From a virus, in IMG/VR virus record IMGVR_UViG_3300031715_000003, positions 1 to 64,000 of that record: a stretch of DNA of 64,000 nt; one strand, written 5' to 3'. Below are positions 41,130 to 51,106 of this stretch, piece after piece. The first letter of the stretch is position 1. The number at the start of each line of letters is the position of its first letter. The notes below the pieces were generated by a model, which was given only the letters and a program-made list of their open reading frames with translations, was not told the DNA's origin and searched no databases. The translations under genes and the position numbers were made by a program.

Positions 41130-41280
41130 TTGACTTTGTAGGGTATTCCGCCGTAAGATGGCCTTGCATCTCTCGTCGGGTCTGCTCCTGGCATGTCATC
41201 ACGCAGCGCTACACGGCAACGCGACGCAACGCAAGGAAATCGCACTGGGGGATAACAAACCAGAAATCGAACTCCCCCAG
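41130..41280 (+). ncRNA. Candidate ncRNA: promoter, 5-nt periodic tract and hairpin (copy A)
   Basis: TTGACT-18-TAAGAT; C at every 5th base from 41162 to 41232; CGCAACGCAAGGAAA; CTGGGGG..CCCCCAG stem. Confidence 0.5.
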
Positions 41281-41328
41281 GGCTAAATGGTTCAGTGATT
41301 CCGATAAAATGCAAGCAGGGAGAACACC

Positions 41329-41496
41329 ATGGCGATCCTATCCTTTATACTTCTGGTTTTCGCATTTGTGCTTTTCGTTCTGGCGGGCTTGGGCCTCCCC
41401 AGTCCTCCAGTGCCGCGCGGCAACCTGATCGGCTGGGGGCTGGCGTGTTGGGTTCTAGCGGAGATCCTAATGCACACCCCGCCATTGATTCACTGA
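41329..41496 (+). CDS. Small two-TM protein (55 aa)
   Basis: GGGAG SD; MAILSFILLVFAFVLFVLAGLG...LIGWGLACWVLAEIL. Confidence 0.6.
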   Translation: MAILSFILLVFAFVLFVLAGLGLPSPPVPRGNLIGWGLACWVLAEILMHTPPLIH

Positions 41497-41962: not shown

Positions 41963-42742
41963 ATGGAAGTTAAGATAACAGGAAAGCGGCTCGGGAAGCG
42001 TGCTCCTCGCTTGGATCCACGCACCCCACAGCTTAAGAACTATATCCGAGTTACGCCTCCCATTCCGCCTCCCGAGGTCAGTTGGATCACCAAGGCAACC
42101 GCTGCGGAACCATGGCCCATGCTAGCCAACGACACGCTTGGGGATTGTGTTGAGGCCGCCCAACTCCATATGATCGAGCAGTGGATCTACTACGGATCTG
42201 GGACGGTCCAACAGGCCCACAACAACGATGCCATCAAGCTATACGAAGCCGAGGGCGGATACGTGCCGGGGGATCCCAATACGGACAACGGAACCGACAT
42301 GCTGACGGCCCTTAACTATTGGAAAAACACCGGTGCCAAAATAGGGACCGTAGTTCATAAGATCGCGGGATACGTGAAGGTGGATCCCACCAACGACACC
42401 GAAGTCCAGATGGCCATCTGGGTATTCGGAAATCTCTTCACCGGGATACAACTGCCTTTGTCGGCCCAAGTCCAGACGTCTTGGACTGTACCGGCCGGCG
42501 GACCGTACGGGGATGGGTCACCGGGGTCGTGGGGGGGGCATTGCGTCCCGATAATGGCCCGCTCTCCCGAAAGCTGCACCTGCATTACGTGGGGTTCGGT
42601 ACTGAAGATGAGCCACAATTTCTTCAGCGATTACGTCGACGAGTGCTACGCAGTTCTGGCCCCCGATTGGCTCAATGCCGCTTCCGTATCACCCGGTGGT
42701 CTTGATCTGGCGCAACTACAGGCAGACCTCGCGGCACTTTAG
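41963..42742 (+). CDS. Papain-like cysteine peptidase-like protein
   Basis: MLANDTLGDCVEAA (catalytic Cys), WGGHCV (His) and ITWG. Confidence 0.65.
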   Translation: MEVKITGKRLGKRAPRLDPRTPQLKNYIRVTPPIPPPEVSWITKATAAEPWPMLANDTLGDCVEAAQLHMIEQWIYYGSGTVQQAHNNDAIKLYEAEGGYVPGDPNTDNGTDMLTALNYWKNTGAKIGTVVHKIAGYVKVDPTNDTEVQMAIWVFGNLFTGIQLPLSAQVQTSWTVPAGGPYGDGSPGSWGGHCVPIMARSPESCTCITWGSVLKMSHNFFSDYVDECYAVLAPDWLNAASVSPGGLDLAQLQADLAAL

Positions 42743-50948: not shown

Positions 50949-51106
50949 GGGGGGAGTACGGCGACAGACGTTCTCCCCCCGTTTTTCCTTGCGTTGCGAT
51001 GCTATGCGCCGACGAGATTTGCGGAGACGAGATACGCCAGGCTCCGACGAGCGCCGACATGCCGTGACTTCCTTACGACTATACCAAGATTATGGTATCT
51101 TCTGAA
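50949..51106 (-). ncRNA. Candidate ncRNA: promoter, 5-nt periodic tract and hairpin (copy B)
   Basis: TTCAGA-17-TATAGT on the - strand; G at every 5th + strand base from 50991 to 51066; same 15-bp end as copy A; GGGGGGAG..CTCCCCCC stem. Confidence 0.5.

What the first reader, a model, noticed from the sequence alone, without database searches (positions are those of the whole stretch)
41130..41280. Promoter-driven non-coding tract with strict 5-nt periodicity (copy A)
Seen: C at 15 consecutive positions spaced 5 nt apart (41162-41232: CCTTG CATCT CTCGT CGGGT CTGCT CCTGG CATGT CATCA CGCAG CGCTA CACGG CAACG CGACG CAACG CAAGG) while the other positions vary. The tract starts just after TTGACT-18-TAAGAT and ends in CGCAACGCAAGGAAA plus a G/C stem that contains the dispersed motif. 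Known: ring proteins such as TRAP read RNA at 5-nt spacing, and 5 bp is half a DNA turn. Inference: a small RNA or DNA lattice that binds an oligomeric protein, possibly a decoy.
Basis: partly seen in the sequence, partly recalled or inferred. Interest (0 to 1): 0.75.

Follow-up and report, generated by a model that had tools for sequence, protein, structure and literature searches.

The report
Stand-alone VIPR guide RNA gene
The 5-base-periodic tract is a self-contained gene for a VIPR guide RNA (vrRNA), the CRISPR-like phage system first described in 2026, and it lies about 39 kb from the phage's own Vipr protein gene. It is real and functional-looking, but it belongs to a kind that is already known.

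Summary
C occupies 15 consecutive positions spaced 5 nt apart (41162-41232), a run that no shuffle of the genome reached. The tract sits between a sigma-70-like promoter and a G/C hairpin. A second copy lies on the minus strand (51066-50987). Six or more further tracts lie outside the window at 80.5-82.7 kb of this 94-kb phage.

Those outer tracts flank a 187-aa gene. Its family profile matches the solved SUSP1 Vipr protein (E 2.4e-8), and its model (pLDDT 93) folds like Cas7, Csm3 and Cmr4. IMG/VR relatives of that gene are flanked by C-N-N-G-G arrays that end in the same CAACG-CAAGG as copies A and B.

The tract is therefore a vrRNA of a VIPR system (bioRxiv 10.64898/2026.04.26.720920). In the published model one Vipr protomer binds each 5-nt unit, the scaffold bases are sequestered, and the two variable bases read double-stranded DNA while skipping one target base per unit.

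The TRAP and decoy ideas are not supported.

I found no natural target for A or B. Two features stand out: the scaffold is relaxed (canonical GG in 19-27% of units, against 73% in relatives), and the cassettes stand alone in a phage that also carries vipr.

The scan had already called VIPR on this genome, in note e1-5988497.

The parts
41130..41159 (+). Sigma-70-like promoter of copy A (TTGACT, 18-nt spacer, TAAGAT)
   Evidence: 9 of 12 matches; 2 promoter-like sites found in the region against 0.3 expected from shuffles.
41162..41236 (+). Repeat tract of vrRNA copy A. It has 15 units of 5 nt (C, two variable guide bases, then G/C, then G/T). The last two units (CAACG CAAGG) are conserved across the family.
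   Evidence: C is present in 15/15 units, canonical GG in 3/15, and G or T at the last position in 13/15.
41225..41239 (+). Conserved 3' end shared with copy B (15-mer ending in CAAGGAAA). CAAGG closes vrRNAs in this phage and in its relatives.
   Evidence: exactly two copies in the window; same ending in the 80-82 kb tracts and in L003-L006.
41242..41283 (+). G/C hairpin closing copy A (8-bp core stem, 20-nt loop, no T-run). It is a putative 3' structure or terminator and belongs to a set of GGGGAG..CTCCCC hairpins in this phage.
   Evidence: tail alone folds at -17.2 kcal/mol, z = -1.75; about 8 similar hairpins genome-wide.
51078..51106 (-). Promoter of copy B (TTCAGA, 17-nt spacer, TG-extended TATAGT)
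   Evidence: 9 of 12 matches, with TG before the -10 hexamer.
50987..51066 (-). Repeat tract of vrRNA copy B: 16 units on the minus strand, antisense to the flanking genes and just after the large terminase gene.
50949..50980 (-). G/C hairpin closing copy B (8-bp stem GGGGGGAG / CTCCCCCC)
   Evidence: tail alone folds at -21.6 kcal/mol, z = -2.2.

Best explanation
Copy A (41130-41283) is a stand-alone gene for a VIPR guide RNA (vrRNA). Copy B (51106-50949, minus strand) is a second one.

Shown here:
- A promoter-like site is followed by 15-16 five-nt units with an invariant C, two hypervariable bases and a constrained G/C-G/T pair, then a conserved CAACG-CAAGG end and a G/C hairpin.
- The same phage encodes a Vipr protein, a minimal Cas7-like RAMP, at genome 80641-81204. 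That gene is surrounded by tracts of the same grammar and sits next to a conserved accessory gene.

Inferred from the published VIPR work:
- The RNA of about 120 nt is transcribed from its own promoter.
- Vipr protomers bind one per unit and form a helical filament. They sequester the three scaffold bases and present the two variable bases.
- The complex binds double-stranded DNA whose sequence matches the variable dinucleotides, with one skipped base per unit (a 44-bp site for copy A). Binding silences transcription there, most likely in a competing phage, satellite or prophage.

The target of A and B is not known.
For: - Periodicity is far beyond chance, and the tract recurs 8 or more times in one 94-kb genome.
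- A profile of the 187-aa protein family (55 of 708 homologs) matches PDB 36pp_D 'SUSP1 Vipr protein' at E 2.4e-8, including the G-loop.
- The AlphaFold model has pLDDT 93.4. Its best Foldseek matches are Cas7 of type VII, Csm3, Cmr4 and Cmr6, at E 1e-7 to 2e-4.
- Four IMG/VR loci encoding 50-56% identical Vipr proteins carry C-N-N-G-G arrays next to the gene, and these end in CAACG-CAAGG-AAA like copies A and B.
- A homolog of the 173-aa neighbouring gene lies beside vipr in three of those loci.
- Published definition: vrRNAs are about 100 nt, with 9-16 YNNGG units plus a 3' tail; vipr is flanked by long intergenic vrRNA regions; there is no self-target at 80% or above (10.64898/2026.04.26.720920).
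- The best own-genome matches of A and B by the 1-nt-skip rule are 19/30 and 21/32. This is the shuffled-guide level and below 80%.
- Read by the same rule, a neighbouring guide of this phage (81576-81641) has its best own-genome hit in the adjacent accessory gene. The best hits in L004 and L006 fall within a few codons of the same offset in that gene's homologs. Relatives' proteins allow 23-24 of 28. The published code therefore appears to hold in this clade.
- Solo and orphan vrRNAs on phages and satellites are documented (10.64898/2026.10.15.759431).
Against: - No RNA data exist, so transcription, the RNA ends and Vipr binding are all inferred.
- The scaffold departs from the canonical GGY. 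Only 3 of 15 units in A and 3 of 16 in B have GG, and in SUSP1 altering GGY abolished silencing. Function therefore needs a Vipr with relaxed recognition.
- No natural target was found for A or B. This covers the own genome, 5 related virus records, 120 Vipr homologs read at codon level, and exact 9-10-unit seeds in IMG/VR, JGI metagenomes and GTDB genomes. The few seed hits scored 20-23 of 30-32 overall, which is chance level.
- The hairpin is of a type found elsewhere in the phage, so it may be a generic terminator rather than a VIPR-specific tail.
- No ortholog of cassette A or B was seen in another genome.
Confidence: 0.85

Rival explanations
1. A and B are vrRNAs, but they act as redirecting or anti-VIPR guides rather than ordinary offensive guides. 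They would load a rival's Vipr, or the phage's own, and send it to decoy or repeated sites or to a rival's VIPR locus, as described for satellite solo vrRNAs.
For: The 2026 competition preprint shows solo vrRNAs that redirect Vipr to host REP elements, and phage-borne vrRNAs aimed at rivals' vipr genes or vrRNAs. A and B stand alone with their own promoters, far from vipr.
Against: Neither guide matched 120 Vipr homologs read at codon level (best 19/30 and 21/32, the null level). Neither matched the vipr/vrRNA loci L003-L006. The phage has its own vipr, so ordinary guide use is the simpler reading. The host genome is unknown, so repeat decoys could not be tested.
Confidence: 0.1
2. A and B are decaying, non-functional remnants of guide cassettes moved out of the array.
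For: Canonical GG is present in only 19% of their units. No target was found, and no orthologous cassette was seen elsewhere.
Against: C is intact in 31 of 31 units, the 15-nt 3' end is identical in both copies, and both keep a promoter-like site and a hairpin. The tracts beside vipr show the same relaxed scaffold, with GG in 27% of all 139 units in the genome. The relaxed scaffold is therefore the system's own grammar, not decay.
Confidence: 0.04
3. The tract is a TRAP-like regulatory RNA or protein sponge, or a DNA lattice, unrelated to VIPR.
For: The 5-nt spacing resembles TRAP's triplet-plus-2-nt-spacer sites. In the 80-82 kb cluster the tracts run into Shine-Dalgarno sequences.
Against: The phage has no TRAP family protein, while the positive control worked. 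A Vipr homolog is present, with arrays of the same grammar beside it in four other viruses. Rfam gave no match.
Confidence: 0.01

Closest known systems
VIPR vrRNAs (Viral Interference Programmable Repeat systems; type II of Escherichia phage SUSP1 and the Pseudomonas fulva prophage), bioRxiv 10.64898/2026.04.26.720920 and 10.64898/2026.04.26.720927
   Same: - Tandem 5-nt units with an invariant pyrimidine, two hypervariable bases and a G-rich pair; 15-16 units, within the published 9-16.
- An inferred RNA of about 120 nt with a conserved 3' end and a structured tail.
- A minimal RAMP (Vipr) gene in the same phage, flanked by more such tracts, plus an accessory gene.
- No self-target at 80% or above.
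   Different: - The scaffold is relaxed to (G/C)(G/T)C, with GG in only 19-27% of units.
- The Vipr protein matches SUSP1 Vipr only over its C-terminal half. The SUSP1 guanine contacts D177 and R138 align with R and a hydrophobic residue.
- The tail is a simple G/C hairpin of a kind found elsewhere in the phage, not the SUSP1 pseudoknot.
- The cassettes lie 30-39 kb from vipr.
- The VIPR type was not assigned.
Solo / orphan vrRNAs (bioRxiv 10.64898/2026.10.15.759431)
   Same: vrRNA units encoded away from any vipr-vap operon, each as a self-contained unit on a mobile element.
   Different: The described cases sit on satellites or on phages that have lost vipr, in Enterobacteriaceae. Here the phage keeps vipr, the cassettes sit in the structural/packaging half (one antisense after terL), and the lineage is an environmental phage with a 57% G+C genome.
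Non-canonical VIPR repeat units (bioRxiv 10.64898/2026.10.21.760802; YNNNG, NNNGG and NNNNG in the discovery paper)
   Same: Five-nt arrays beside Vipr-like folds whose fixed trinucleotide departs from GGY.
   Different: The published variants have other fixed or singly degenerate trinucleotides (for example GAC, CAC, WGT). Here two positions are degenerate and only C is fixed, while relatives with 50-56% identical Vipr keep GG.
Class 1 CRISPR crRNA with a Cas7 backbone
   Same: A RAMP filament coats a guide RNA at fixed register and flips bases out periodically. The predicted fold of the 187-aa protein matches Cas7, Csm3 and Cmr4.
   Different: The register is 5 nt with two read bases per unit, not 6 nt with five. 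There is no repeat-spacer array, no other cas genes and no adaptation genes.
TRAP-binding sites in Bacillus trp leaders
   Same: Triplets separated by 2-nt spacers, read by an oligomer.
   Different: TRAP reads GAG/UAG triplets with an 11-mer ring. No TRAP gene is present here.

Membership tests
VIPR vrRNA | Tandem 5-nt units YNNGG (GGY/NN), at least 4 units and typically 9-16 | tested here: inconclusive
   A has 15 units and B has 16, with Y = C in every one. Canonical GG is present in only 3 units of each copy and never in two consecutive units. In the relaxed published form YNNNG, the last 5 units of A qualify; G or T fills the last position in 94% of A+B units. The periodicity and the pyrimidine criterion are met, but the strict GG criterion is not.
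VIPR vrRNA | Two hypervariable positions between conserved scaffold positions | tested here: met
   Across 139 units of this genome, positions 2-3 are spread across all four bases (no base above 39%). C is 100%, position 4 is G/C in 82%, and position 5 is G/T in 95%.
VIPR vrRNA | Conserved 3' extension (tail) with secondary structure after the repeats | tested here: met
   A and B share an identical 15-mer at the end of the tract. In each copy an 8-bp G/C stem begins 6-8 nt downstream of CAAGG. CAAGG closes vrRNAs in this phage and in L003-L006. The tail differs from the SUSP1 pseudoknot, and the hairpin type is not exclusive to vrRNAs.
VIPR system | A Vipr protein (minimal single-RRM RAMP with G-loop and thumb) encoded by the same element | tested here: met
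   The candidate is L001:16641-17204 (187 aa). Its family profile matches PDB 36pp_D 'SUSP1 Vipr protein' at E 2.4e-8. The model has pLDDT 93, and its top folds are Cas7, Csm3 and Cmr4.
VIPR system | vipr flanked by long intergenic regions that encode vrRNAs, plus an accessory (vap) gene | tested here: met
   Tracts of 10-36 units fill the gaps at genome 80.5-82.7 kb. A homolog of the 173-aa neighbouring gene lies beside vipr in L003, L004 and L006. Its relation to the published vap1-6 was not tested.
VIPR vrRNA | Expressed as an RNA of about 100 nt that co-purifies with Vipr | not testable with these tools
   I have only promoter-like sites and an inferred length of about 120 nt from promoter to hairpin.
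VIPR vrRNA | A natural DNA target matching at least 80% of the variable dinucleotides under the 1-nt-skip rule | tested here: inconclusive
   None was found for A or B. The public collections could only be scanned with exact 9-10-unit seeds, so targets with scattered mismatches would be missed.
VIPR vrRNA | No self-targeting at 80% or above on the source genome | tested here: met
   The best own-genome scores are 19/30 (63%) for A and 21/32 (66%) for B, equal to the shuffled-guide null.
TRAP-binding RNA | A TRAP (TrpBP, PF02081) protein and GAG/UAG triplets | tested here: not met
   PF02081 is absent from the phage, and the Bacillus subtilis control was positive. The conserved triplet is (G/C)(G/T)C.

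The most novel reading that the evidence does not exclude
This phage's Vipr may have shifted its repeat recognition so that only the C, plus a loose G/C-G/T pair, is required. Relatives with 50-56% identical Vipr keep GG. A shifted recognition code would make this phage's guides orthogonal to rival Vipr proteins, so they could not be hijacked or redirected. The two promoter-to-hairpin cassettes in the packaging/structural half would then be independently timed guides against a competitor that has not yet been sampled.
Probability: 0.2. Interest if true: 0.6.

Novelty: new member of a known kind. Interest (0 to 1): 0.4.

Why it matters
VIPR was described only in 2026, and mostly from enterobacterial and Pseudomonas phages. 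This finding adds a nearly complete (about 98% by the database's estimate) 94-kb environmental phage with three useful features.
- It carries at least eight vrRNA tracts, two of them self-contained cassettes 30-39 kb from vipr.
- Its scaffold keeps only the pyrimidine strictly. That makes it a natural test of how much of GGY a Vipr protein needs.
- It gives two clean, short, promoter-to-hairpin units that could be tested directly for expression, Vipr loading and programmable silencing.

The finding also shows that a simple search for period-5 runs recovers vrRNAs that a strict YNNGG search would miss.

Tried and rejected
- **Rfam:** gathering thresholds on the window and E-value mode on the 80-83 kb region gave no family, and no hammerhead between tracts. 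There are no tRNA or tmRNA genes.
- **Small-protein reading:** the 42-aa and 40-aa ORFs over copies A and B are rejected. A 5-nt period cannot come from codons, the two peptides resemble each other only where the DNA is identical, and copy A's ATG overlaps the -10 hexamer.
- **Decayed microsatellite:** rejected.
- **TRAP:** rejected.
- **First fold:** folding the 187-aa protein without an alignment gave pLDDT 34 and was useless.
- **Pfam and PHROGs:** neither named the neighbouring genes, apart from terminase and two families of unknown function.
- **Target hunts:** all were negative or at chance level.
  - Own genome.
  - Loci L003-L015.
  - Five whole related virus records, 221 kb in total.
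  - Vipr homologs read at codon level.
  - Exact seeds in viral contigs: three scans returned nothing; a fourth returned 3 hits, the two rescored at 22/32 and 20/32.
  - Exact seeds in metagenome contigs: 2 hits, rescored 23/30 and 22/30, matching the roughly 2 expected by chance.
  - Exact seeds in genome contigs: two scans, no hits.
- **Orphan tract near the 259-aa gene:** relatives of the gene next to copy A carry no orphan tract nearby, and the complete 103-kb and 38-kb relatives have no vipr.

Full report
**The observation.**
- One search shows C at 41162 and at every fifth base up to 41232, which is 15 steps. The in-phase neighbours are G at 41157 and A at 41237.
- A scan of the window for same-base runs at spacings of 2-12 found only two period-5 runs above 8: this one, and 16 G's at 50991-51066, which are C's on the minus strand.
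- In 200 shuffles of the whole genome the longest period-5 run was 8-14.
- TTGACT-18-TAAGAT at 41130-41159 is a 9-of-12 sigma-70-type site.
- The tract ends in a 15-mer that occurs exactly twice in the window, once at the end of each copy. An 8-bp G/C stem follows, with the dispersed GAACTCCCC on its 3' arm.
- Copy B has its own TG-extended promoter-like site. It lies antisense between the large terminase gene and the next gene.

**Beyond the window.**
- The window belongs to a single 94,224-bp virus record.
- Scanning that record showed the two copies are a minority. Between 80.5 and 82.7 kb there are period-5 C runs of 36, 20, 14, 14, 14 and 10 units, all on the + strand.
- These runs fill the gaps between small genes, and most end in CAAGG, often as CAAGGAG just before an ATG.
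- Over 139 units the profile is: C 100%; two variable positions; G or C 82%; G or T 95% and never C.
- The element is therefore a triplet (G/C)(G/T)C alternating with two free bases.

**The lead.**
- My own first guess was a 5' leader bound by an oligomeric RNA-binding protein. I had also noticed that the 187-aa gene inside the cluster has a RAMP-like glycine-rich loop.
- The scan's earlier notes (e1-5988497) stated that this phage carries a VIPR system.
- I then read the source papers.
- VIPR systems consist of Vipr, a minimal RAMP, and vrRNAs of about 100 nt. Each vrRNA has 9-16 YNNGG units followed by a conserved structured tail.
- One Vipr protomer binds each unit in a helical filament, sequesters GGY and presents NN.
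- The complex binds double-stranded DNA that matches the NN dinucleotides with one skipped base per unit, and it silences transcription there. Natural targets are competing phages, satellites and prophages.

**Testing membership myself.**
- The 187-aa protein has 708 homologs, all unnamed.
- A profile of 55 of them matches PDB 36pp_D, 'SUSP1 Vipr protein', at E 2.4e-8 across the C-terminal half, including the G-loop.
- With that alignment the AlphaFold model reaches pLDDT 93.4. Its best Foldseek matches are Cas7 of type VII, Csm3, Cmr4 and Cmr6.
- Four IMG/VR loci encode proteins 50-56% identical to it.
- Each locus has arrays of C-N-N-G-G units next to the gene. Several of these end in CAACG-CAAGG followed by A's, the same ending as copies A and B.
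- A homolog of the 173-aa neighbouring gene lies beside vipr in three of those loci, as expected of an accessory gene.
- No TRAP protein is present, and Rfam has no match.

**Does the published code hold in this clade?**
- I read the guide at 81576-81641 by the 1-nt-skip rule.
- Its best own-genome match (20/28) falls in the adjacent accessory gene.
- Its best matches in L004 (20/28) and L006 (18/28) fall within a few codons of the same offset in that gene's homologs.
- Read at codon level, relatives' proteins allow 23-24 of 28.

**Targets of A and B.**
- The best own-genome matches are 19/30 and 21/32. That equals the shuffled-guide null and is below the 80% threshold, which fits the published absence of self-targeting.
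- I found nothing in related loci or in five whole related virus records.
- I also found nothing in 120 Vipr homologs read at codon level.
- Public collections could only be scanned for exact seeds of 9-10 units. Six scans gave no hits or hits at the expected chance number, and the whole-guide scores of the hits I rescored (20-23 of 30-32) were no better than random outside the seed.
- The targets remain unknown.

**What is unusual.**
- Canonical GG occurs in 27% of this phage's units and 19% of the units in A and B, against 73% in the relatives' arrays. C never varies.
- In the SUSP1 structure, G1 is read by H17 and D177, G2 by R138 and W178, and the pyrimidine sits in a pocket that includes R179.
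- In the alignment R179 matches an invariant R of this family and W178 an invariant F. D177 aligns with R, and R138 with a hydrophobic residue.
- This fits a divergent type. It does not explain why this phage in particular relaxes GG, because its relatives share those residues.
- Non-canonical units and orphan vrRNAs have both been reported, so these are variations within a known kind.
- The closing hairpins belong to a set of about eight GGGGAG..CTCCCC hairpins in the genome. They may be generic terminators rather than VIPR-specific tails.

**Verdict.**
The TRAP and decoy analogies are not.
- The element is a stand-alone vrRNA gene of the phage's VIPR system: a new member of a known, very recently described kind.
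- The scan had already recognised VIPR on this genome. This report adds independent protein-level confirmation, the anatomy of the two orphan cassettes, the relaxed scaffold statistics and a negative target search.

Noticed in passing
L001:16360-18740 (genome 80360-82740, outside the window): This is the VIPR module proper. It holds a 42-aa zinc-ribbon ORF, vipr (187 aa), a 67-aa ORF and a 173-aa accessory-like gene. vrRNA tracts fill every gap. The CAAGG(AG) that ends a tract also serves as the Shine-Dalgarno sequence of the next gene, so Vipr loading could also control translation of vipr and its neighbours.
   Followed up: partly
L001:18196-18375 (genome 82196-82375): One tract runs for 36 uninterrupted units, far beyond the 9-16 units reported per vrRNA. 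It may be two or three guides in a staggered or unprocessed array.
   Followed up: no
window 29728, 30909, 33679, 35857, 45540, 50951, 61154: A family of GGGGAG..CTCCCC hairpins (18-36 nt, no T-run, readable on both strands) includes the stem closing copy B; the stem closing copy A is of the same type. The phage-wide excess of GAACTCCCC (81 hits with at most 1 mismatch, against 18 expected) is partly made of their arms.
   Followed up: partly
genome 81785-81825 (L001:17785-17825), minus strand: The guide at 81576-81641, read with one skipped base per unit, has its best own-genome match (20/28) in the adjacent accessory gene. Relatives' versions of that motif (V-S/T-Y-x-E-L-x-x-L-I-G-R-D-I) allow 23-24 of 28.
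   Followed up: partly
window 41963-42742: This 259-aa gene (PHROG 19005, function unknown) is conserved at 54-61% identity in complete 103-kb and 38-kb viruses that have no vipr and no orphan tract nearby.
   Followed up: partly
window 41329-41496: A 55-aa hydrophobic ORF with a good ribosome-binding site starts 46 nt after copy A's hairpin. It would be co-transcribed if the hairpin does not terminate transcription.
   Followed up: no
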